A stretch of DNA of 64,000 nucleotides from assembly GCF_964204865.1 (NCBI RefSeq), contig NC_135262.1, positions 12,152,001 through 12,216,000 on the forward strand, in the 5' to 3' direction. The DNA comes from Styela clava (lineage: Eukaryota). Position numbers and translations under genes: made by a program. Under the pieces are notes generated by a model that was not told where the DNA came from, searched no databases, and saw nothing but the letters and a program-made list of their open reading frames with translations. This document shows positions 5,590 through 63,848 of the stretch, piece after piece (the stretch's first letter is position 1; every line of letters starts with the position of its first letter).

Positions 5590-7130
5590 CAACATTTGCA
5601 CAGACAGACTTATCAACTCGCATATAAATTGCACCCATGGGCGTTTAAATCCATGTACAATTGCACTCACGGGCATTTGCACCCATGGGCGTTGTATTTA
5701 TGGTCATTTGCAACTTTGCATTCTCATCCACCGTTTGAAGCATTAGGCATTTGCACTCACGAACATTTCACCCACGGCTCACGTAGCGTTTGAACCAATA
5801 GACATTTGCACTAACGTACTATTACACCCAAGAAAATTGCACACCTGAACATCTGTACATACGAATTTCGCACCCATGGATATTTACACCAAGGACATAT
5901 ATATGCACAAGTGTAATAATAACTAACTGAAATAGATATATAAACTTGTCGAACGCAACTAAGATTGTACATACAATTTGTAAGCGGTTATAAATGTATA
6001 TAAACATTTATATACATATATATATATATATAAATATTTGTTGGAAAAATTTTGTCGGAAACACAAATATTAGTGGGTTGAACATGTCCGTGAATGCAAA
6101 TGCACGTCGGTGCAACTGTCTATGAGTGCAAATGTTCGTGGATGCAAATGTACGTCAGCGCAACTGTCTACGGGTGGAAATGTCCGTGTGTGCAAATGTT
6201 CGTGGATGCAAATGCACGTCGGTACAACTGTCTACGGGTGCAAATATCCGTGTGTGCAAATGTTCGTGGATGCAAGGGTACGTCGGTGCAACTGTCTACG
6301 GGTGTAAATGTCCGTGTGTGCAAATGTTCGTGGATGCAAAGGTACGTCGGTGCAACTGTCTACGGGTGCTAATGTCCGTGTGTGCAAATGTTCGTGAATG
6401 CAAATGCACGTCGGTGCAAATGTCCGTTTGTGCAAATGTTCGTGGATGCAAAGGTAAGTCGGTGCAACTGTCTACGGGTGTAAATGTCCGTGTGTGCAAA
6501 TGTTCGTGGATGCAAAGGTACGTCGGTGCAACTGTCTACGGGTGCAAATGTTTGTCAATGCAAAGGTACGTCGGTGCAACTGTCTACGGGTGCAAATGTC
6601 CGTGTGTGCAAATTTTGTAGATGCAAAGGTACGTCGGTGCAACTGTCTACGGGTGCTAATGTCCGTGTGTGCAAATGTTCGTGAATGCAAATGCACGTCG
6701 GTGCAATTGTCTACGGGTGCAAATGTCCGTGGATGCAAAAGTACGTCGGCGCAACTGTCTACGGGTGCAAATGTTCGTGGATGCAAAAGTACGTCGGCGC
6801 AACTGTCTACGGGTGCAAATGTTCGTGGATGCAGAAGTACGTTGGCGCAACTGTCTACGGGTGCAAATGTCCGTGTGCAAATGTTCGTGAATGCAAATGC
6901 ACGTCGGTGCAATTGTCTACGGGTGCAAATGTCCGTGGATGCAAAAGTACGTCGGCGCAACTGTCTACGGGTGCAAATGTTCGTGGATGCAAAAGTACGT
7001 CGGCGCAACTGTCTACGGGTGCAAATGTTCGTGGATGCAGAAGTACGTTGGCGCAACTGTCTACGGGTGCAAATGTCCGTGTGCAAACGTTCGTGGATGC
7101 AAAGGTACGTCGGCGCAAAGGTTCCCGAAT
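5590..7130. repeat. Foldback/MULE-like element with expanded subterminal minisatellite
   Basis: 6080-7120 is an array of ~16-bp GTGCAAATGT-type monomers grouped into 48/64-bp units. The inverted motif CATTTGCACCCA recurs at 5594-5890, separated by an AT-rich spacer. Outer ends are not resolved. Confidence 0.75.
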
Positions 7131-7738: not shown

Positions 7739-9352
7739 TCACTTCCAACAGAGTTTTTCACAAAGTTCGCATGAAATATCAACGCGAATTCTCTTCTTGC
7801 CCTTTCCGCGTGTTTTGTTGTGCTTTGATCGTTTTACTGTAAACAATAAAATCAAGAGTTCAATATTGCATATATATTTATGTCGTTATATGGCAAGGTG
7901 TTTTTGCTATGGTACGGCTAAAAGTAATACTACTCCCAACCAACGCAATGTAAATTTACGAATATAATTCAATAGTAACAGAATCTTTACCTCTGTTCAG
8001 TGCAACCTCGCTATTGTCTTCGATGCTCCTTTTGAATATCGTTTGTATTTTGCAACTTGAAAACATTGTTTTGCACGTTTGACGGATACTTGGAGCACAT
8101 GATGCCATTAACTTCTTCAGAAATTTTCTACAAGAAAAAAAAACAAGTATGTTATTGAGTATGTCAATTTCGTGATAAAGTGAAACTATTTTTTACATGC
8201 CTCAACAAAAATTGAAAAACCGAAGATATATAGTTTACTTAGCTTGGTGGGATACTCATGCATTGTTTAATTGTGTTTGTTTTTAGCACTAAGGCTTATG
8301 ACAAGGTCGTGCTCGGGTATTTGATGCCGCGGGGTGATGTGTCAATATGAAAACCGCGAATTCGCGTGAATTTTGGAGGAAAATTAGAATTGTCCCGCTT
8401 CGAGACATCGTGTGGTTAACAAGCCGGAAATTTGATCTACTAATAAATCTGAATCAAAATTAATGGGATTTTGCCAACATTTCATTTATTCGTTTTCTTT
8501 CTGATTTTCCCATGTATGCTGAATTAACATATTGCCACGTTTGGATGATGGATATAACTGTTTTAATGTAAGGTTATCAACCTGTAATTGAATGGTTTCG
8601 ACGTGGATAAGCAATCCCAGCATATTGCTTTCATGTGGTAAAATTAAAGATCATTTATAATCGTGAGAAATTATCAATTTTTTTTAACAGGAAGTACGAT
8701 TTATAAATTAGGTAATTAAATTGTTTAATTGAAAACATTTTCACAAATTATCACACTACCACTTAGACAATTATATTCTATAAATAAAATCGTTTAGAAA
8801 TGTACTAAATTTTAGCTCGGGTTTTTCTGGTTTTCAATGAAATTGCTTCTTTATACTGTAAGTCGTTAGCCAGTAATGAAATCAGTTATTTTTGGCTATC
8901 AAAATAAAATGTTGAATAAAACTTTTCTACCCTCCTCGATCAAAAACAAAACAAGTACATTTTACTTGGAAGTAAAGTACTAGCTAGCAACCAATAAAAT
9001 ACTAATTATTACTAACTAATCGAGCCTATATCGTCGAACAGATGGTTTGTCATCAATTTCACTCAATTGAAAGTTTTTCTTACCTTCGGCGTATTCGTCT
9101 GCTATTCGGGGCATCTCTGTAGGTACTTGGCTCATCTTCAGCTTTAGCATTGGTGTTATCGTCACACTCTTTTTCCTCTGTTTTTATTCTTTCCTTTTCA
9201 GCTGCTATCTGTCGTCTCAAAAGTTTCATTTTTCGTGCCAAAGTTAATCGATTCAACGCAGCTCTTTTGACCGACATTGGCGCAGAAGACACACATGCGA
9301 TGACAACTGCTGTCATTGCAAGTACAGCAATAAAATATGTACTCTTCAACAT
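7739..9352 (-). CDS. Secreted Cys-rich prohormone-like precursor A (167 aa, 3 exons), unknown family
   Basis: Exons 9352-9084, 8127-7991, 7836-7739 with canonical GT-AG introns (phases 2, 1). Product: MLKSTYFIAVLAMTAVVIACVSS-APMSVKRAALNRLTLARKMKLLRRQIAAEKERIKTEEKECDDNTNAKAEDEPSTYRDAPNSRRIRRR-KFLKKLMASCAPSIRQTCKTMFSSCKIQTIFKR-SIEDNSEVALNRVKR-SKHNKTRGKGKKRIRVDISCELCEKLCWK. Structure is corroborated by the paralog at 19644. Confidence 0.9.
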
Positions 9353-12480: not shown

Positions 12481-15400
12481 AGCAGGGAGATTCCAAGGGT
12501 TTGTTTAAATTGCTGTATTTATCAGAAAATGCGCTGAGGTTATTGGTTGACCTAGTTCTAAGTTCTATATTATTTGCCACATGCCACCAATTATAACAGT
12601 TTTAGATAAATAAACAAAGTATCTTGTTTCATTGGGGAGAAGTTAGCGCATCATGGCTCCAAAAATAAACCGAATACACATAGGATTTACTTTCTATTTA
12701 CCATTATATCCGACTTGTTATTTATAAGTAAATATTTGACTTGAATAAGTTATGAGCATTACAGGTCGCTTTTGGTTAAAATAATGTTTCTTCGTTTCTG
12801 ATAAAGAGTTGTTTTAATGATTTCAAGTTAGTTTATGATTTTTCAATCCATCATGCGTTCTCGATGTTCATCTTGAATTTCTATCTGGCTGCATGCTTAA
12901 AAAACATATGCATAACCCACATATGCTCAGATTTACATTACATTATAGTTTGTAACATCATATTATTAATTGTTAAATTCTACGAATTTCCTGCGGGTAA
13001 ATCGGTAAGTTTTCCTCGCCTTGAAGAAATTGTGATCAAAATATTAGGTTCATGCATAAGTAAATAGATGAAGTCATGAAAAGATTGTAATTCCGATAGT
13101 AGAGTGGGAACGCTGCTGTACTGAAGCGCGAATCGGAATACCGGAACATAATTAATTCAAATAAAAGTGTCTGTAAGTGTACGTAACAAAGATGCTAAAC
13201 GCCTTTTGAACAAAAAAACGAATTTATTAGCAATTTTTCGATTTCAAGTAAGTATCCTGACAATCACTTGTTGCCTATGAGGCTAATTTGCTTAAACTGG
13301 GCATGACCCGTTAATGATAAATTTGGAATTTTGATGTCTTTATTTGCAAGTTCAGGTTACACAAGCCTTTCATTGATCGGCTTATCTACTTGAGAATTAT
13401 ATTAGTATTAGTTAAAAATTTGAATTTCGTCGGAATGCTGAAAGCTATACAACAATGGACTTAATATAAACAAAAACAATCATTGAACATAAACAAAAAT
13501 TCCGATTGCCCAAAGCGACTAAAATCTAAGTGAAATTCTAACTAACCCATTATATAAACACTAGGGAATAAGTAAAGATAATTTTAGGCGAGGCAGAAAT
13601 GCATAAACAATTGTACATGCTTAACCATCCTATTTTGTTTACAGGAAACTACCTGAAATTATCGTGAGACTGTTTCTGTTGATAAACTATGAGAGGGAAT
13701 GTTTTTAGGCAAAATCGGAAAAATCGTATCGGTATTGAAGGTTATTTTAAATGTTATTCATACGTTTTAATTGTATTATATATCAATTAATTTATATATA
13801 TCAGGTCACTATACATATTTATGCATTCGACTACATTAGTTGGCTAGCTATTTGTGTACATCAAATTTTAAATATTTGAATCAAATTTTGTTAACCATTT
13901 TTTACTGTATTTCTCGTCCTGTACTTGTTTCGTACGTTTACATGTTTATCTATGTTAAATTGATGGAAAGTGCATTTGAGGGAAATGAAAAAAAAAATGA
14001 ATCTATTATAAAAAAAAAATTGTGCGACACTGATACAACAATATTAATTATTTTTGAGCTCTGCTTTTGTGTCTGGGAGCACCCATGTGTTTGTGTTATC
14101 CAAATCCCATAAATGGCAGATTGTACGTTATAACAAAAGTAAGCCTGAATCTATTAATCTAAACTCAATTATGGCCCGGCAGTTTCGTTTGTTTAATGTT
14201 TACTAAAGTTCTGATATTCAGAGTAAACAACGCAAGCTCCGGTGACGTCAGAACTACTGAAAATAAGTCAAACAATCTATTTTGAGAGGAACGTATCGTA
14301 CATCATACATTACATGCCGAACTGATTGTGTCGTGCACTGTTTATACGAGCAGGTGCTTAGGAGAATGTGGTCGATTTTAAAACTAAATATAGCGTTTTG
14401 ATTTTATCGTAATTAATGTTTGTAACTAATTTTATCTGCTTTTATAGAAATTATAGATACAACATCTACTAGAATTAATGCACGCTGTAATGGAATTTCA
14501 AAATTGATTATATTTTAAAGAAGTATTATGTCAATAGGAGTGTAATAAGAGATTACCCGATCTTTGCACAAATCCGTAACTACGCCTAAATAGTTGATAT
14601 ATTTATTGTCATGTGGTAATACCGTATCGAGTACCGTCTTTTTCTCCAAAACGCTTTCCCAACGTTGGAATAATATCTCAGTGCTTACAGGCACATACAG
14701 GGAAAATTAATCCTGTAATCTTTCGGGAATCCGAACTACTCGGCTTTTACTAAACACAGTCGCTCTTGGGTATCAGTGACATTACTATCAGTACGATTAC
14801 TATATTCAATATATTGACAAAAACGTTTTGGCTGTGACTAGAGAAATAGGAGAATTATCATTATCCGGAATCACACATTCGTCACTCATAGTTTCACCAA
14901 ACTTTTTCTATTCGACATTTACATTCTTTCTTGATTTATCTGCAACCCAGGTTGGATGTACTGCTTTTCATCAATATTCGCGAAAAACGTTAAACGGGAA
15001 CATCGAATTTCCTCTATATTATTCTCCTGCCCAAGCCAACCGCGATACCACGTTTCTAAACAGAAGAAAATCCTCCTTATTCAAAACGGAAGTTTCATGT
15101 GTTGAAGATGTAGGAGAATGACTATTTTACTCCCAAAGAAAATTCCAAAGATTTAAGATTACAAACCCACAAATCACGTACTGAAACAAAAGGGGAAGCC
15201 AAAAACTTCCCTGTCTGTATAAAAATAGTGAATTCAAATTAGTAAATTACTAATTAGAAGTAAAAGAAATTTACGTTAGAACGCACTGTTTCAATTTTAA
15301 ATAGAAAGAAGTGCCATATCAACTCCTTTTTGTTTTTTGGAATTTTCTCTTTCTCAGATGTTGAACTTGGTATAGATAGACATTTTCATTGATGTAAATC

Positions 15401-19643: not shown

Positions 19644-20775
19644 ATGGCCCAGTATTCTTCAACACCGCGCAGTCACATTCTTCTGCTTTGCCTACTTTTA
19701 CTTGCCTTGGCTATATCTACCTCAAACTCAGCACCGTCGTACAGGCCACACTTCAATCAAATGAACATTATACAGAAAATAAAATTTTTGGAACGAAAAT
19801 TATCATTGTTGCGAAATCGTAAAACGAAATGTCACAAACAAGTTCCAGATGCGCCAAAATCCGAGACTCCAGATCAAAATAACAACGAGAATACAGATTG
19901 GTCGCAAAGAATAAGGTATTTCATGTTTTATAATGTCTAATACTTTAATACACTGTATTATGAGTTGCTGTGTCTGGTACTGTAAACAATAGATTGTCGT
20001 TTATTTTTTTACTATATGAATATTCACTTTGCATGACAATCAGTAAATATTTGTCAAAACGTCATCCTGTACAAACAAAATTAATGATGAACCAGTGTTA
20101 AGCTAGCCAAAATATGATCGTAATGATTTATCTAACTATGTAGTAATAGTATGTTTGTCTTTATAAGTCAGAAAATTTTACAGTTCTATCTCAGTCTGTG
20201 AATGCACAACGTTACATTTTCCAGTTTATATCTTACTGCATATTTAAATTGTTACTGCGACCTACTTGATCGTACAAATTCAATTTTATATTGGTCGATG
20301 ACAATATATTTTTTAATTTTAGACAAACTTATGAAAGAGTTACGTCTTCGTGTGGGCTAATAATGCAATCAAGATGTAAAACAATGACAAGTCGATGCCA
20401 CGTTTCAATGCTTTCAAAACGTAGTATTCCAGAAGACGAAAACGGTGACGTCGTAGAAAGAGGTATGTTTGAAATCTATGTAGTCATAATATGACCATTA
20501 TGAATGGAATGTAAGAAAAGCGCTATTCTTATCGATAGTCCTACATTCATCGAAACTTGATCATTTCGAAACGCGGTGATTAACATTGCCATGATCCTTG
20601 GCATACGTCGTATTAATGTAAATAAAAATAGAGACTGTGCAGTGATTATTTAAAATATATTAATTTGAATATGTATTTTTCAGTAAAGAGAAGCTCATAC
20701 TCAGTGTCTCGACGAAATCGCGGGAAGAAAATTAAAGTTACTTGCAACATGTGCAGAATCAATTGCTGGAGTTGA
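19644..20775 (+). CDS. Secreted Cys-rich prohormone-like precursor B (167 aa, 3 exons), paralog of precursor A
   Basis: Exons 19644-19915, 20323-20462, 20684-20775, GT-AG, phases 2, 1 as in A. Product: MAQYSSTPRSHILLLCLLLLALAISTSNS-APSYRPHFNQMNIIQKIKFLERKLSLLRNRKTKCHKQVPDAPKSETPDQNNNENTDWSQRIR-QTYERVTSSCGLIMQSRCKTMTSRCHVSMLSKR-SIPEDENGDVVERVKR-SSYSVSRRNRGKKIKVTCNMCRINCWS. An in-frame upstream ATG exists at 19590; AATAAA at 21280. Confidence 0.9.
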
Positions 20776-27033: not shown

Positions 27034-27795
27034 ATGTCGCTTGCAAGACTTGTAGGAAAAAGCACACTTGTAACCGGAGGCGGAAGTGGAATAGGAAGAG
27101 CAATTTGTCAGGTGTTTGCAAGAGAAGGTGCAAGTGTAGCAGTAATTGACATCAACCGTGACGCTGTATCTGAGACTCTCGATCAACTGCCGAGGAACCA
27201 TGGCAACTTACATTGCGCCATTGAAGCTGATGTGACCTCATCCGGAAGAGTCAAACACGTTTTTGCAGAAGCAAAAGATAAGCTGTCCAAAACAAGCACC
27301 ATCCTAGTCAACAACGCAGGTATTATTCGTGGCGATCTACTACTGGATATGAAAGATGATGATTTTGATGACGTCATCAGAATAAATTTGAGAGGATCGT
27401 TTCTTATGGCTAGAGAATTTTTGAGATCATTGAAAGATGCAACTGATATTAAAGGCTCCTTGGTGAATATAGCAAGTATCGCAGGAATAACAGGATATTT
27501 CGGGAATGCGGATTATTGTGCTTCAAAACATGGAGTAGTTGGATTGACAAAAAGTATCGCATTGGAATATCCGAAACATAAAGTACGGTGTAATGCCGTG
27601 CTACCGGGTATAACCGACACACCAATGGCACAATCATTCGATCCAAAGAAAATAGAACAAGGCGTGAGACAAATACCGATGCGAAGATTGGCAAAACCCG
27701 AAGAAATTGCAAATGCTTGTTTATTTTTCGCATCAGATGAAAGTTCATACGTCAATGGAGCATGCTTAGAAGTAACGGGAGGACTTAATGTTTAA
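27034..27795 (+). CDS. HSD17B8: Short-chain dehydrogenase/reductase, HSD17B8 / 3-oxoacyl-ACP reductase-like, intronless
   Basis: TGGGSGIG Rossmann motif, NNAGI, catalytic YCASK, C-terminal SSYVNGACLEVTGGL. Likely start is MSLARL at 27034. Confidence 0.85.
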   Translation: MSLARLVGKSTLVTGGGSGIGRAICQVFAREGASVAVIDINRDAVSETLDQLPRNHGNLHCAIEADVTSSGRVKHVFAEAKDKLSKTSTILVNNAGIIRGDLLLDMKDDDFDDVIRINLRGSFLMAREFLRSLKDATDIKGSLVNIASIAGITGYFGNADYCASKHGVVGLTKSIALEYPKHKVRCNAVLPGITDTPMAQSFDPKKIEQGVRQIPMRRLAKPEEIANACLFFASDESSYVNGACLEVTGGLNV

Positions 27796-34477: not shown

Positions 34478-35411
34478 ATGTCTCGGCAAGGAACATATTC
34501 ATATGTGGAAGCATTTATTCAAAAAACTATTCCTAAAATAAAAGAGCGAGATTTGAAAACTTTGAAGTCATCTTTGAGAAACAAGCCTATTATGTTGGTA
34601 GGAGAACAAAAGAGAGCTAAAAAGAGAAAACGTGAAAAACAGAATAAGAGAAGAATAAAGAATCGCATATTGGCGAAACCTACAAATTCAAACTATCAAG
34701 ATTATGAAAAACTGCGTATTTTATGGATGGAATACATCACAGATTTACTCTCGGATTATCAGACATTAAAACCAGGAGAAACCAAACCATCTTTGGATAA
34801 CAAAAACGCACAGGAAGTTTTGTTGAAAGCAGATTATCATGGAGCAGATCTGTCTGTGACAGGTTCACCTTGTAAATCTCATTTGGGTTTGAGTGGAACA
34901 GTCCTTCAGGTGTGCCAATATATCTGTATTATTAACCTTTTTTATTAACTCATTTTGTCCTTGTTTTGAAGTGCACTGGCACAATATGTGATTTCATCAT
35001 ATATCAATGGTATTTACAGATTCAATACTAATTGGTGATTGCACTCTACACATGCAACTTTTGACCTCATAATATATAGAATAAATTATTATGTTTCCTG
35101 ATTATGATAACTGGATGACTTGGTAATTCGTTCAAAGGATTGTTCAGTGTGTTAAATATGCATACCAATATTTCCGTTTTTTTATTAAATTAAGTTATTT
35201 TATCTCATTTTTTCAGGAAACAAAAAACATATTTTTGATCTGCACCAAGGAGAACAAATTAGTGAGAATTCCCAAGAACAAGACTATATTCACATTGGAA
35301 TATTCTGGATATCTTATAACAATATTCGGATCACAATTTTGCTTCAAGCCATCTCATAGACTCATGAAAAGATTTACGAAAAATCCACGCTTAAAAGAAC
35401 TTTTGCGATGA
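34478..35411 (+). CDS. POP4: Ribonuclease P/MRP subunit p29
   Basis: Exons 34478-34909 and 35217-35411. Motifs LWMEYITDLL, LLKADYHGADLSV..S.C...G.SG.V.QET.N.F..T..N.L..IPK....F, and the C-terminal GSQF..KPSHR. Confidence 0.9.
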
Positions 35412-54619: not shown

Positions 54620-57352
54620 ATGGCCTCTGTCGAAGAGAGCGATTATATTTGTCGTGTATGTAGATCTGAAGGTTCCCAAGACAAACCACTTTATCATCCA
54701 TGTATTTGTACTGGAAGTATACGATATGTACATCAGGACTGTTTGGTACAATGGCTTCGCCACAGCAAAAAAGAATATTGTGAATTGTGCAAGCATAAGT
54801 ATTCGTTCAAGCCAATTTATAGTGCTGATATGCCCACTCGTCTGCCAGTAACTGACCTCGTGTATGGGTTATTCCGCAGCATATTCATGGCTGTAAGATC
54901 ATGGTTGCATTATACCTTGGTAGCGGTGGCTTGGTTAGGTATTGTCCCCCTAACCGCTTGTCGAATTTATAAATGTCTTTTTACCGGATCGGTAAGATCT
55001 TTACTGAGCTTACCAATGGATATGCTTTCTACTGAAAATGTAGGACAGGATATTTTATGTGGATCATTGGTCGTGGCTTGCACGATGGCTTCTTTCATCG
55101 GATTAGTGTGGCTTCGCGAACAAATCATGAATGGTGGCATGCCAGGCTGGCTAAATAGAAACGGTCCTGATAACGTCGCTGTAGCTCCGAATGCAGAAGT
55201 TGCGATAAATGATGATAACAATAACATAGAACATGGAGTCCCGAATGCTGAAGATATTGTTGAACAAGAAGAGGATGAATCGGATGATTCTGAAGACATA
55301 GATGAGGAGGAGGAAGATGCGGAACCAGAAGAGATTCAGCTGGATGGTGCTGAAGTTGAAGATCTGGAGGAAAATGAAGTGGATGTACAAAATGAAGGAG
55401 ATGATGGCAATTGGAATGCACTTGAATGGGATAGAGCTGCGGAAGAATTAACGTGGGAAAGAATGTTGGGACTCGATGGATCTCTAGTTTTTCTCGAGCA
55501 TGTATTCTGGGTTGTTTCACTCAACACTCTTTTCATTCTTGTATTTGCATTTTGTCCGTATCATCTTGGACATTTTGTTCTTGCAGCGGTTGACCTTGAT
55601 GTTTACCTCGTTGCTTCACGATTCGAAGGATTCCTCACCACTTTATTCGGATACGTTATTTTGACCGTGGCATTTTTTGTGTGTCATGCTGCTATGTTTT
55701 TGTTGAAAATGCAACGATCTGGAAGAGTTCTTGGGATTTTGTATATTGTATTGAAAGTAGCTCTGCTAGTTATGTTTGAAATGGGTGTTTTCCCACTTGT
55801 ATGTGGATGGTGGTTGGACATTTGCTCACTACAGCTTTTTAATACAACTGTTCAAGAAAGAGTTACTAATTACATAAATTCACCTGGAACGTCGACTTTT
55901 TTCCATTGGTTATTAGGAATGATTTATATATTTTACACAGCTTCATTCATGCTGCTTTTAAAAGAAGTTTTGCGTCCTGGCGCATTATGGTTCCTACGCA
56001 ATTTAAACGATCCGGATTTCAACCCGATTCAAGAAATGATCCACTTACCATTGTACAGACATATTCGAAGATTTTTACTTTCAGTCGTTATATTTGGATC
56101 TGCAGTTCTAATGATGATTTATTTGCCAGTGCAAATGATACTTCGTTATTCACCCAACTTTCTACCATATCATGTTAATTTACGTAAAGATGTTCCAATC
56201 AGTGATTTATCTCTTGAACTTATCCTACTGCAAGTTATCATACCTGCTTTACTAGAGCAAGGCCAGACAAGGCAATGGTTGAAATCAATAATAAAGATTT
56301 GGGCGAAAGTTGTTGGTACTTTACTAGGTGTAAAGTCATATCTTCTTGGTGATACTGACGGCGATGCCAGAGCTCAAAATGAAAATCAAATTCAACCTCA
56401 ACGGGCGGTAAATAATAATGATGAAAATCAAGAAGAAGTTCCAGTTGTGCCATTTCAGCAGCAAAATTTACACCCAGAACCACAACAGATGGCTTTAGAT
56501 GGCGAGATACATCAACCCTATACTCGCCCAAATTATTTTGTGACTAGAATTGTGCTTTTGCTACTTTTAATGTGTGCAACGCTTTCATTGATCAGCCTTA
56601 CAGTAATGGTCGTACCTGTGGGAATTGGACGATATTTATTTAGTTTGTGGTTAGGTACTGAAAATGCTAATTTTATACATGATTTATATCCTACAGCTTT
56701 GGGGTTATATACATGCTGGCTGATGGGACATTTGGTAAACTTATCAATGGTATGGTTTCCTCGGGGTTCAAGAGCGATTTGGTCAGAGTGTAAAACATTG
56801 ATTAAAATGATTTCTAAAATTGCGATTGTTGGGGGTTTTGTTTTTGGATTATTTCCACTATTGTTCGGATTGCTTTTTGAGCTGGTAATCGTAATTCCAT
56901 TGAGAGTACCTTTACACCAATCTCCTCTTAATTTTCTTTGGCAAGATTGGGTGCTTGGAATTCTTTTAGTTAAGTTAGCAGTTGCTTTAACCTTGCTCGG
57001 CCCCCAATGGAAAATAAGAATTGCTATAGAGAGGGTCTTTCATCAAGGACCTAGAAATTTCAGTCTTCGTGATATGTACGTTGATGTTATTCATCCCATT
57101 ATGTGTAGTCTTTTATTATCTTTAACTGTGCCATATGTGATTGCTCATTCGGCCACATATGTTTTAGGTTTGCCACACGATTTTTCAAATATTTTATTAC
57201 GTCGTATATATCCTTGTCTCATTTCCTTTTTTGCACTAGTTTCTTTTCTCATGTTTGAAGCGAAGCAGTTTCGTCGATTGTGCGATCATATCAAAAATGA
57301 ACGTTATCTTGTTGGGAAAAGATTACTCAATTACGAGCCTGCTAAAGCCTAA
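54620..57352 (+). CDS. MARCHF6: E3 ubiquitin ligase MARCH6/Doa10, intronless CDS
   Basis: RING-CH domain (ICRVCR..PLYHPCICTGSIRYVHQDCLVQWL..CELC), WDRAAEELTWERMLGLDGSL, TD region GWWLDICSL, and C-terminal IKNERYLVGKRLLNY. Confidence 0.97.
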   Translation: MASVEESDYICRVCRSEGSQDKPLYHPCICTGSIRYVHQDCLVQWLRHSKKEYCELCKHKYSFKPIYSADMPTRLPVTDLVYGLFRSIFMAVRSWLHYTLVAVAWLGIVPLTACRIYKCLFTGSVRSLLSLPMDMLSTENVGQDILCGSLVVACTMASFIGLVWLREQIMNGGMPGWLNRNGPDNVAVAPNAEVAINDDNNNIEHGVPNAEDIVEQEEDESDDSEDIDEEEEDAEPEEIQLDGAEVEDLEENEVDVQNEGDDGNWNALEWDRAAEELTWERMLGLDGSLVFLEHVFWVVSLNTLFILVFAFCPYHLGHFVLAAVDLDVYLVASRFEGFLTTLFGYVILTVAFFVCHAAMFLLKMQRSGRVLGILYIVLKVALLVMFEMGVFPLVCGWWLDICSLQLFNTTVQERVTNYINSPGTSTFFHWLLGMIYIFYTASFMLLLKEVLRPGALWFLRNLNDPDFNPIQEMIHLPLYRHIRRFLLSVVIFGSAVLMMIYLPVQMILRYSPNFLPYHVNLRKDVPISDLSLELILLQVIIPALLEQGQTRQWLKSIIKIWAKVVGTLLGVKSYLLGDTDGDARAQNENQIQPQRAVNNNDENQEEVPVVPFQQQNLHPEPQQMALDGEIHQPYTRPNYFVTRIVLLLLLMCATLSLISLTVMVVPVGIGRYLFSLWLGTENANFIHDLYPTALGLYTCWLMGHLVNLSMVWFPRGSRAIWSECKTLIKMISKIAIVGGFVFGLFPLLFGLLFELVIVIPLRVPLHQSPLNFLWQDWVLGILLVKLAVALTLLGPQWKIRIAIERVFHQGPRNFSLRDMYVDVIHPIMCSLLLSLTVPYVIAHSATYVLGLPHDFSNILLRRIYPCLISFFALVSFLMFEAKQFRRLCDHIKNERYLVGKRLLNYEPAKA

Positions 57353-59332: not shown

Positions 59333-60931
59333 ATGATGGATAAACAAAAAGAAGCATTGGTGAGAATTACTGGAACTGTACAAACAAAATATGAAGAAGT
59401 GGATAGATATGCACGGGAACTTCATTCAAAAATTGACACACTCGAAAATTGTTACAAAGATTCGATTTTAGAACTGGACGAGCAATTCCAGATGTTGGCA
59501 GAAAGTCTCGAAAGAGCTCGAACTCGAATGATGTCTGAGATTGAAACTGAATTAGCAGAGAAAATGAAACCGTTGCAAGAGCATTTACAAACTTTCGAAT
59601 CAGCAAAACATGATGCTGAAGATCTAATTGCAATGTCCAATGAGGCCCTAGATTTGACAGCACCCGATCAATTCTCACAAGCCGCTCTTCGTATTAAAGA
59701 GCGTGTAACAATGTCTCCTATATTTCGGCTTTCGCTGTGCCCGTTTGATGATAATGCAGAACCAGAATGCTTCTTTTATGCTGATTTCGCTAGGGAACAA
59801 AACGTTTTGAATCAGCTGAAATTTCTACCTATTCCAAGCCAACCCGAAATTGTTAAAGCCGGATGTTTTGCGGAAAACAATATCGTTCATTGCCTATGGA
59901 CAATTTTGGAAGAAGAAGACAATTTTTTATCTGCTGATATGCCGATAAGTTTATGCAGCGAACAAACAGATCGTCTTCACCTGCCTTCTTCTATCAATTA
60001 TTTCGTCGTACAATATCGACAGGTTCGAACTAGCGGAGAAAATATTCCATGGATCACTATTGAATGTGTTCGTTCAATGCAATGTGATATAAAAGGGTTA
60101 ATATTTCATCAACCTTTTCTTGAGTTCCGTGTGCAGGCTTGGAATAAGGCAATGGGGGGTACATGGAGTAAAGTAGGGTCAATCTCTACTCCAGCTTTTC
60201 ATTTTGCTCTCAATCCAGACGCCTCCCATCCAAATCTTAAAGTGATTTCAGATGATGTTGTGGAATGGGACGCTTCGTCAAATAAAGTTTCTCAAGATAA
60301 TAGAATAAAAAGTGCTAGCATGACTCGCTCGCCGTCTCCGGCGAAAGGTGTAACCTCATCTTCTCCTAGAAGAGCTAAACCTAAAGATCGCTTCACTGGA
60401 GAGTCTTACACTGTACTTGCTGACACAGCATTTAGTGACGAAGAAGCTTATTTTGAGGTTTCACCTCATCCTGACTGCAAAACGTATTCTGTAGGAATAA
60501 CCTTGAAATCGCTTGCCAGATTTGATCAACTGGGAAAAACAGCAACATCATGGTGTATACATATCAGCAGCTGGATTCAGAATACATTCGTTGCGAAACA
60601 TAACAATAAAGTTAAAAATCTAGATTCATCAGGTCAAACACCAAATAGATATGGAGTCTACTTCAATCTTTCTACTGGAATATTGTCTTTTTATAATGCC
60701 GAAACACGTCGACACATTCATACGTTCAAGCAAGTAAAATGCAATGGCCCGATTGTTCCAGGATTTCTTATGTGGTTCGGATCTTTAGAGGTATTTACTG
60801 GGATTCAAGTTCCATCGTGGATTGTCACACGACCTTCAACTTCTCTCAATATCAAATCTGATTCAAGTTCGACAAAATCAAATTCACCTGTGAATCCAGC
60901 AAGTCCAGAGGAAAAGTCATCTTTGAAATAA
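59333..60931 (+). CDS. FSD1: FSD1/FSD1L-like protein (coiled-coil/COS, FN3, SPRY), intronless CDS
   Basis: KQKEAL start, IKERVTMSPIFRLSL, DFAREQNVLNQLKFLPIP, SHPNLKV..VEWD, DRFTGESYTVLADT and FVAKHNNKVK. The ORF-track start at 59264 is GTG; the first ATG is at 59333. Confidence 0.9.
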   Translation: MMDKQKEALVRITGTVQTKYEEVDRYARELHSKIDTLENCYKDSILELDEQFQMLAESLERARTRMMSEIETELAEKMKPLQEHLQTFESAKHDAEDLIAMSNEALDLTAPDQFSQAALRIKERVTMSPIFRLSLCPFDDNAEPECFFYADFAREQNVLNQLKFLPIPSQPEIVKAGCFAENNIVHCLWTILEEEDNFLSADMPISLCSEQTDRLHLPSSINYFVVQYRQVRTSGENIPWITIECVRSMQCDIKGLIFHQPFLEFRVQAWNKAMGGTWSKVGSISTPAFHFALNPDASHPNLKVISDDVVEWDASSNKVSQDNRIKSASMTRSPSPAKGVTSSSPRRAKPKDRFTGESYTVLADTAFSDEEAYFEVSPHPDCKTYSVGITLKSLARFDQLGKTATSWCIHISSWIQNTFVAKHNNKVKNLDSSGQTPNRYGVYFNLSTGILSFYNAETRRHIHTFKQVKCNGPIVPGFLMWFGSLEVFTGIQVPSWIVTRPSTSLNIKSDSSSTKSNSPVNPASPEEKSSLK

Positions 60932-63314: not shown

Positions 63315-63848
63315 ATGGCTTCTGGAGGTCATGATGCAGCAGATAGTATTCCAACACCACGAAGCATGGATGATCCGAAAATCCAAGGACCAAACTCGAA
63401 GAAACCCATAATGAATAGGACTTTTAGTGGAGAACAAGAAACAAGTTCACACGAACATTATGAAAAAAGTAGCCATGGACTTCAAAATAAAGCTGTACCA
63501 TATCAAAGATCTACGAGACCATGCGCTCCACAACCTTCGAACAAAGGTCAAACTCAAATTAAACCAAGACGCGTCGGTGAACGAATCGAAGATGTATTTC
63601 AGGATGAAATAGTTCAGAGATTTCCGAAGATGACTGAGTTTAAAAAGTTCGCTCGATCTTCGTCAGGATTGAGATTATCAGATTATGATGTCGAAAGCAT
63701 AATGGAAGACTATCGCCAGGCAGAGGAACAAAAGCTTCAAATGTTGTATTTATGGAAACAAAAAAAAGGGAAAAATGCAACACCAGATTTGATTCGCAAA
63801 CTAGTTGATGAGTTTTTTGATAGACCAACCTATTATGATCAAGACTGA
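63315..63848 (+). CDS. Small protein with C-terminal death domain
   Basis: Disordered N-terminal half, then FKKFAR..GLRLSDYDVESI..EEQKLQMLYLWKQKKGKNAT, a typical death-domain pattern. Confidence 0.75.
   Translation: MASGGHDAADSIPTPRSMDDPKIQGPNSKKPIMNRTFSGEQETSSHEHYEKSSHGLQNKAVPYQRSTRPCAPQPSNKGQTQIKPRRVGERIEDVFQDEIVQRFPKMTEFKKFARSSSGLRLSDYDVESIMEDYRQAEEQKLQMLYLWKQKKGKNATPDLIRKLVDEFFDRPTYYDQD

What the first reader, a model, noticed from the sequence alone, without database searches (positions are those of the whole stretch)
7739..7836. C-terminal chain is a cationic C-x2-C-x3-CW peptide, a possible antimicrobial effector
After RVKR cleavage, A releases SKHNKTRGKGKKRIRVDISCELCEKLCWK and B releases SSYSVSRRNRGKKIKVTCNMCRINCWS. 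Both have a K/R-rich N-terminal half, and an acidic linker precedes them as in charge-neutralising propieces. From memory, the ascidian turgencin antimicrobial peptides also end in C-x2-C-x3-C, and halocidin is a disulfide-linked two-chain ascidian peptide. These are analogies, not demonstrated homology. The basic stretch could instead bind heparan sulfate.
Basis: inference. Interest (0 to 1): 0.7.

Follow-up and report, generated by a model that had tools for sequence, protein, structure and literature searches.

The report
Sea squirt two-chain peptide precursor family
The positively charged tail is the last exon of a spliced sea squirt gene from an undescribed family (seven copies found in this genome, relatives in another sea squirt order), whose product is likely cut like proinsulin into two disulfide-linked chains that likely act as a signal rather than as a free antibiotic peptide.

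Summary
7739-7836 is exon 3 of a three-exon Styela clava gene (LOC120332693); gene B lies at 19644-20775. All four introns are spliced in public contigs from three studies. The genes belong to an unnamed family: seven loci found here and four clusters in Clavelina lepadiformis, with no Pfam, PDB or Atlas match. Shared layout: signal, propiece, chain 1 (C-x7-C-x6-C), KR, acidic linker, KR, chain 2 (basic arm, C-x2-C-x3-C-W). Each chain has three cysteines, so chain 2 is likely bonded to chain 1, not released alone. Turgencin membership fails (one amidated chain, other spacing). The linker (-3, -5) cannot neutralise +13 or +10. The arm is always cationic but poorly hydrophobic and not conserved in sequence. 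Best reading: a proinsulin-like two-chain signalling ligand whose basic arm binds sulfated glycans (0.5); a two-chain antimicrobial stays possible (0.25). The intron phases (2, then 1 in the linker) match dilp7-type insulin genes, reported lost in chordates, but profile tests show no insulin homology (0.12). No activity, cleavage, disulfide or tissue was shown.

The parts
9084..9352 (-). Gene A exon 1: hydrophobic signal peptide (about residues 1-23), propiece with a predicted helix, furin-like R-x-x-R cluster at its end; phase-2 donor
   Evidence: spliced joint 8127/9084 in 6 of 8 runs
7991..8127 (-). Gene A exon 2: chain 1 with C100-x7-C108-x6-C115 (8099-8052), K122-R123 (8033-8028), acidic linker (8027-7995); phase-1 donor
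7739..7836 (-). Gene A exon 3 (the finding): end of the RVKR site (KR 7834-7829), chain 2 of 29 residues (7828-7742), stop
   Evidence: joint 7836/7991 in 5 of 8 runs
7784..7828 (-). Basic arm of chain 2 of A: K/R-rich, almost no large hydrophobic residue; variable in sequence across the family
7745..7771 (-). C158-x2-C161-x3-C165-W166 motif, invariant in the family; predicted short helix
19644..19915 (+). Gene B exon 1: signal peptide and propiece; phase-2 donor (the public model LOC120332736 starts 18 codons further upstream)
   Evidence: joint in 8 of 8 runs
20323..20462 (+). Gene B exon 2: chain 1 (C-x7-C-x6-C), KR, acidic linker; phase-1 donor
20684..20775 (+). Gene B exon 3: KR, chain 2 of 27 residues with C-x2-C-x3-C-W at 20743-20769, stop
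   Evidence: joint in 6 of 8 runs

Best explanation
The exon encodes the second chain of a secreted precursor that is likely cut at its dibasic sites, like proinsulin, into two chains predicted to stay joined by three disulfides and likely to act as a hormone or local signal. Shown: three spliced exons, a hydrophobic N-terminus, 3+3 invariant cysteines on either side of an acidic linker flanked by dibasic sites, an invariant near-terminal Trp, and a family spread over two ascidian orders. Inferred: the linker is a folding spacer that convertases remove; the three Cys of chain 2 pair with the three of chain 1; the conserved R-h-x-h-S/T strand and C-x2-C-x3-C-W end form the recognition surface for an unknown receptor; the variable basic arm holds the ligand on sulfated glycans of the cell surface or matrix, or is trimmed at its own K/R pairs.
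For: Six Cys, the first KR and the Trp are identical in 8 of 8 full-length members from Styela and Clavelina, and the Cys motifs also stand in three more Styela loci. A second KR follows the linker in 7 of those 8. Mean pairwise identity without Cys is 0.34 for the five residues before the motif and 0.33 for the motif (one of its six non-Cys places is the Trp), against 0.10 for the basic arm; cross-order values are the same. The arm of A has 1 large hydrophobic residue in 15, and members have 1-4. The linker charge is far below the charge of the chains. The layout signal-spacer-chain-KR-linker-KR-chain with a phase-1 intron in the linker is that of insulin-type hormone genes (PMC8286064 section read). 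Of the 20 coding variants displayed, 11 are silent and none touches a Cys, Trp or KR site.
Against: No receptor, tissue, cleavage or disulfide was shown. Non-Cys identity within chain 1 is only 0.18, low for a receptor ligand and as expected for a diversified defence family. Cationic charge is kept in all members, and chain 1 is itself cationic and amphipathic in several (net +1 to +9, helical moment 0.43-0.69). One Clavelina member (P0009) lacks the second KR. The heparin-type patterns (8 of 10 members) had no control and arise easily in any K/R-rich stretch. Both AlphaFold models are weak (pLDDT 62 and 56, pTM 0.29). The variant tables were cut (39 and 14 rows not shown).
Confidence: 0.5

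Rival explanations
1. A two-chain cationic antimicrobial: the disulfide-linked dimer (about +13 for A), or chain 2 alone, is stored in hemocytes or epithelia and damages microbial membranes, like centrocins or halocidin but with three disulfides.
For: Net +4 to +10 before the motif in 10 of 10 members; chain 1 amphipathic and up to +9; multigene family with low identity between Cys; acidic propieces and two-chain peptides are known among marine antimicrobials (PMC10608444 passages); turgencin A shares the last C-x2-C-x3-C.
Against: The arm is charged but barely hydrophobic (chain 2 of A 21% hydrophobic); the linker is too weak to neutralise; no amidation signal in 10 of 10; the arm is crowded with K/R pairs that could be cut off; the Trp end and the strand before it are what is conserved across orders.
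Confidence: 0.25
2. A strongly diverged insulin-superfamily ligand, possibly from a dilp7-type gene, with re-wired disulfides: chain 1 would be the B chain (Cys at B7, B15, B22), chain 2 the A chain (Cys at A13, A16, A20). This is a special case of the signalling reading.
For: Five of five fully modelled Styela genes have a phase-2 intron before the chain-1 exon and a phase-1 intron in the linker, the layout that marks dilp7-type genes, reported as not found in chordates (PMC11863921 passages; PMC8286064). Gly follows the first Cys in 5 of 8, with hydrophobic residues at +4 and +11, as at B8, B11, B18. One residue at most follows the Trp. The model of P0006 has helices at 45-55 and 105-112, where the B and second A helices would lie (insulin helix positions recalled).
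Against: Neither canonical motif (C-x11-C; CC-x3/4-C-x8-C, seen in the paper's dataset) is present. No Pfam insulin match among 9 members. Family profiles rank this genome's own insulin B and A exons 3588th and 2779th of 6127 segments; hhalign probabilities are 0.1% and 0.3%. Two intron phases match by chance about once in ten (my estimate). The phase-2 intron lies 9 codons before the first Cys in A and B but the best acceptor lies about 41 codons before it in locus G. The same paper did not find the dilp7 receptor LGR4 in chordates.
Confidence: 0.12
3. A secreted structural or adhesive component of tunic or mucus: the basic, disulfide-locked chains bind sulfated polysaccharide without signalling or killing.
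For: Unconserved K/R-rich arm with conserved charge; presence so far only in ascidian-labelled proteins plus one unnamed record.
Against: No repeats, no Tyr-, Gly- or Pro-rich stretch, small size, and precisely kept processing sites and Trp.
Confidence: 0.1

Closest known systems
Proinsulin / relaxin / dilp7-type precursors
   Same: Signal, (front domain), chain, dibasic site, connecting peptide, dibasic site, chain ending near the last Cys; six Cys; phase-1 intron in the connecting peptide; an upstream phase-2 intron as in dilp7-type genes.
   Different: Cys split 3+3 with spacing x7,x6 and x2,x3 instead of 2+4 with x11 and CC-x3-C-x8-C; no profile similarity; long basic arm in front of the second chain's cysteines; very short linker.
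Turgencins A and B (Synoicum turgens)
   Same: Ascidian, cationic, six Cys, last three spaced C-x2-C-x3-C.
   Different: One chain of 35-36 residues, C-x3-C-x4-C at the start, amidated, motifs CXMAC and KKXGG; here two predicted chains, 41-50 residues between Cys3 and Cys4, no terminal Gly, invariant Trp.
Halocidin, dicynthaurin, centrocins (two-chain marine antimicrobials)
   Same: Two chains joined by disulfide; short anionic propieces are described for centrocins (PMC10608444 passages).
   Different: They are helical peptides with a single disulfide; here three Cys per chain and a poorly hydrophobic arm.
St-CRP-1 and -2 (Synoicum turgens)
   Same: Ascidian six-Cys peptides (PMC13208793 section 2.2).
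   Different: 18-19 residues, neutral, amidated, CC-C-C-CC pattern.

Membership tests
Turgencins | Last three Cys spaced C-x2-C-x3-C | tested here: met
Turgencins | Six Cys in one 35-36 residue chain, first three spaced x3, x4 | tested here: not met
   spacing x7, x6, then 41-50 residues with KR sites
Turgencins | C-terminal amidation (needs a following Gly; rule recalled) | tested here: not met
   0 of 10 members end in Gly
Turgencins | CXMAC and KKXGG motifs | tested here: not met
   not seen in the alignment, read by eye; motifs
Turgencins | Antibacterial activity | not testable with these tools
   needs an assay
Halocidin / centrocin-type two-chain antimicrobials | Two helical chains joined by a single disulfide | tested here: not met
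   three invariant Cys per chain
Halocidin / centrocin-type two-chain antimicrobials | Made in blood cells | not testable with these tools
   runs carry no tissue label
Insulin/relaxin superfamily | Signal-B-C-A order with dibasic sites around the connecting peptide | tested here: met
   first KR 8 of 8, second KR 7 of 8
Insulin/relaxin superfamily | Phase-1 intron in the connecting peptide | tested here: met
   5 of 5 full gene models; fitting donors and acceptors in F and G; rule
Insulin/relaxin superfamily | B chain C-x11-C and A chain CC-x3-C-x8-C | tested here: not met
Insulin/relaxin superfamily | Profile similarity (Pfam PF00049, or to this genome's insulin-like exons) | tested here: not met
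Insulin/relaxin superfamily | Insulin three-helix fold | tested here: inconclusive
   low-confidence models; fold searches matched only the long N-terminal helix
dilp7-type insulin-related peptides | [quoted passage not shown] | tested here: inconclusive
   phase and order match; the exact place in dilp7 genes could not be read from the supplement's text
dilp7-type insulin-related peptides | Conserved front (F) domain | tested here: not met
   the propiece is variable or nearly absent across members and unlike the Trp-rich dilp7 front domains, by eye
dilp7-type insulin-related peptides | LGR4-type receptor in the genome | not tested
   not searched here; reported as not found in chordates

The most novel reading that the evidence does not exclude
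Ascidians kept a dilp7-type insulin-superfamily gene thought lost in chordates, re-wired all three disulfides (core leucines B15 and A16 turned into a cystine) and expanded it into a multigene family of two-chain, glycan-tethered hormones with an unknown receptor.
Probability: 0.12. Interest if true: 0.85.

Novelty: new variant of a known kind. Interest (0 to 1): 0.5.

Why it matters
Ascidians are the closest invertebrate relatives of vertebrates, and their peptide signals are used to reconstruct the chordate endocrine system. A family of prohormone-like precursors with a new 3+3 cysteine frame, kept in two ascidian orders and missing from Pfam and from the papers searched, adds either an unrecognised signalling system or a new scaffold of disulfide-locked antimicrobial. 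The mature chains are about 30 residues each, so both readings can be tested directly with synthetic peptides.

Tried and rejected
Pfam: nothing over a curated cut-off for P0001 and three exons of B or for 9 aligned members. PDB by sequence: 0 matches for P0001; 2 chance matches, E 0.37 and 3.4, for the profile. ESM Atlas: no usable hit by features; best TM 0.37 and 0.51 to unrelated bacterial proteins. Fold searches on both weak models matched only the N-terminal helix (best Z 6.2 and 3.7; Foldseek 0 with E <= 0.001), so the cysteine core was barely tested. The complex predictor was not available; no model of the two chains together was made, so their pairing is untested. Metagenome scan with one protein: 214 pattern matches, 0 confirmed. 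The representatives search used a profile of Styela A, B and C only and could not be repeated with the wider alignment, so the lack of Ciona or non-tunicate hits (9 proteins with E <= 0.001) does not show absence. Tree on 48 columns: 1 of 7 inner branches supported, long branches; it cannot date the duplications. No RNA holder listed on record as RNA; the runs are guessed RNA without tissue labels and their depths cannot rank expression. A C-x2-C-x3-C exon on C5 without the Trp scored weakly and was not counted. Likenesses to midkine, ShK, saposin, trissin and Wnt tails were considered from memory only and dropped for wrong spacing. Earlier findings: 0 in three look-ups. Literature: six gene and protein ids gave 0 papers; topic searches listed nothing that, by title and abstract start, describes the family; subscription journals are mostly not held and supplementary gene lists of Styela transcriptome papers were not searched.

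Full report
OBSERVATION. The coordinates 7739-7836 are the last exon of a minus-strand gene (A), whose exons are 9352-9084, 8127-7991 and 7836-7739, with GT-AG introns of phase 2 and 1. Gene B lies head to head 10.3 kb away, at 19644-19915, 20323-20462 and 20684-20775, with the same phases. Both give 167 residues and are 29% identical (E 3e-21). A matches a public Styela clava protein, LOC120332693, but for one residue; B is LOC120332736. The terminal motif is not chance: 2 in the window, 0 in 40 simulations.

THE FAMILY. Searches of this genome with single proteins, each new member leading to the next, found five more loci: C on contig C4, D and E elsewhere on C17, F and G about 9 kb apart on C13. 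A to E are full three-exon models with phases 2 and 1; for F and G only exons 2 and 3 were located. Seven is a lower bound. A profile of A, B and C against 1.84 billion representatives gave 9 proteins with E <= 0.001: four from Styela, four clusters from Clavelina lepadiformis (five gene ids) and one unnamed record that holds only the exon-2 part. Styela and Clavelina belong to different ascidian orders (recalled). All named members are labelled uncharacterized or secreted protein. Pfam, PDB and the ESM Atlas gave no family.

ANATOMY. Each of 8 full-length members has one strongly hydrophobic N-terminal window, a propiece of very variable length, chain 1 with C-x7-C-x6-C, an invariant KR, a mostly acidic linker, a second KR in 7 of 8, a basic arm, and C-x2-C-x3-C-W with at most one further residue. 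Outside the cysteines, identity is 0.34 in the five residues before the motif, 0.33 in the motif, 0.18 in chain 1 and 0.10 in the arm. The arm keeps its charge (+4 to +10 in 10 of 10; +6 in G) but not its sequence, and carries 1-4 large hydrophobic residues in 15. Of 20 displayed coding variants in A and B, 11 are silent and none hits a Cys, Trp or KR site; the tables were cut. AlphaFold predicts helices for chain 1 and for the motif, with a disordered linker and arm, at low confidence.

HOW IT LIKELY WORKS. Three cysteines on each side of a removable linker point to a proinsulin-like route (inference): the precursor folds as one chain, three disulfides form between the halves, and convertases cut at the dibasic sites. 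Chain 2 would then not be a free peptide. What selection has kept across orders is the cysteine frame, the first KR, the short strand and the Trp, which fits a surface read by a protein partner. A charged, unconserved, poorly hydrophobic arm fits binding to sulfated glycans; the matching patterns occur in 8 of 10 members but had no control. I put a signalling ligand at 0.5, not counting the insulin-descent case.

THE ANTIMICROBIAL READING. It stays open at 0.25, as a property of the dimer more than of the tail: charge is conserved, chain 1 is amphipathic, and identity between cysteines is low. The analogies offered are weak. Turgencin A ends in C-x2-C-x3-C, but it is a single amidated chain with different spacing and motifs (PMC7024374, passages); no member here ends in Gly. 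Halocidin and centrocins use a single disulfide (PMC10608444, passages). The linker offsets 3 of 13 charges in A and 5 of 10 in B, too little for a neutralising propiece.

THE INSULIN QUESTION. All insulin-type genes have a phase-1 intron in the connecting peptide, and dilp7-type genes add a phase-2 intron before the B-chain exon (PMC8286064, section on peptides read whole; PMC11863921, passages and one supplement); the latter paper did not find dilp7 or its receptor in chordates. This family has that layout, and its hydrophobic pattern and helices can be laid on the insulin core with cysteines moved to B15, B22, A13 and A16 (my mapping; insulin numbering partly from PMC12796670 passages, partly recalled). 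The tests went against homology: no canonical motif, no Pfam match, this genome's own insulin-like exons rank 3588th and 2779th of 6127, hhalign 0.1% and 0.3%. It works like a proinsulin in design but is not filed as a member; descent gets 0.12.

PAPERS SEEN. Passages: PMC7024374, PMC10608444, PMC12702675, PMC12796670, PMC5465252, PMC11863921 (plus supplement 3). Section read: PMC8286064 section 11; PMC13208793 abstract and section 2.2. All others only as search listings. Six accession terms gave 0 papers; topic searches listed none that describes this family.

VERDICT. A real, expressed, undescribed ascidian family of two-chain peptide precursors with a new cysteine frame. Novelty: new variant of a known kind. 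Interest 0.5.

Noticed in passing
window 6084-7119: Tandem array of 48/64-base units, about 1 kb, just 3' of gene A; it yields long Cys-rich open frames that are likely repeat artefacts.
   Followed up: partly
window 54623-57349 (+): A MARCHF6-like E3 ligase (RINGv and MARCHF6_C) in one unbroken frame of 909 codons; the vertebrate gene has many introns (recalled), so introns seem lost here.
   Followed up: no
window 27034-27792, 34481-35408, 59336-60928, 63315-63845 (+): Neighbours: short-chain dehydrogenase in one frame, RNase P/MRP p29, a SPRY protein in one frame, a Death-domain protein. No link to the finding is seen.
   Followed up: partly
G000 C6:3057192-3057263, C2:16884850-16884933, C10:3281217-3281342: Insulin-like exons with ordinary cysteine motifs on C6 (B chain) and C2 (A chain), and a weaker one on C10, separate from this family.
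   Followed up: partly
G000 C5:8529072-8529134 (L003 1456-1599): A frame with an R-x-S-I-S-C-x2-C-x3-C look-alike but no Trp or stop after it; weak score; may be a distant member or chance.
   Followed up: partly
window 8100-9113: Contigs in two runs read through intron 1 of gene A: unspliced RNA or DNA in the run.
   Followed up: no
window 8001, 10476, 13645 (run X3): Nearly the same 30-base loose end on three contigs, with odd joints; likely a library or assembly artefact.
   Followed up: no
window 13096-13933: Covered by contigs in two runs between genes A and B, with no gene model made.
   Followed up: no
genes A, B, C exon 1: The propiece of A, B and C shares a predicted helix right after the signal (N-x-M/L-x4-K-x-K-x-L), which could be a third product or a folding aid; D, E and the Clavelina members mostly lack it.
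   Followed up: partly
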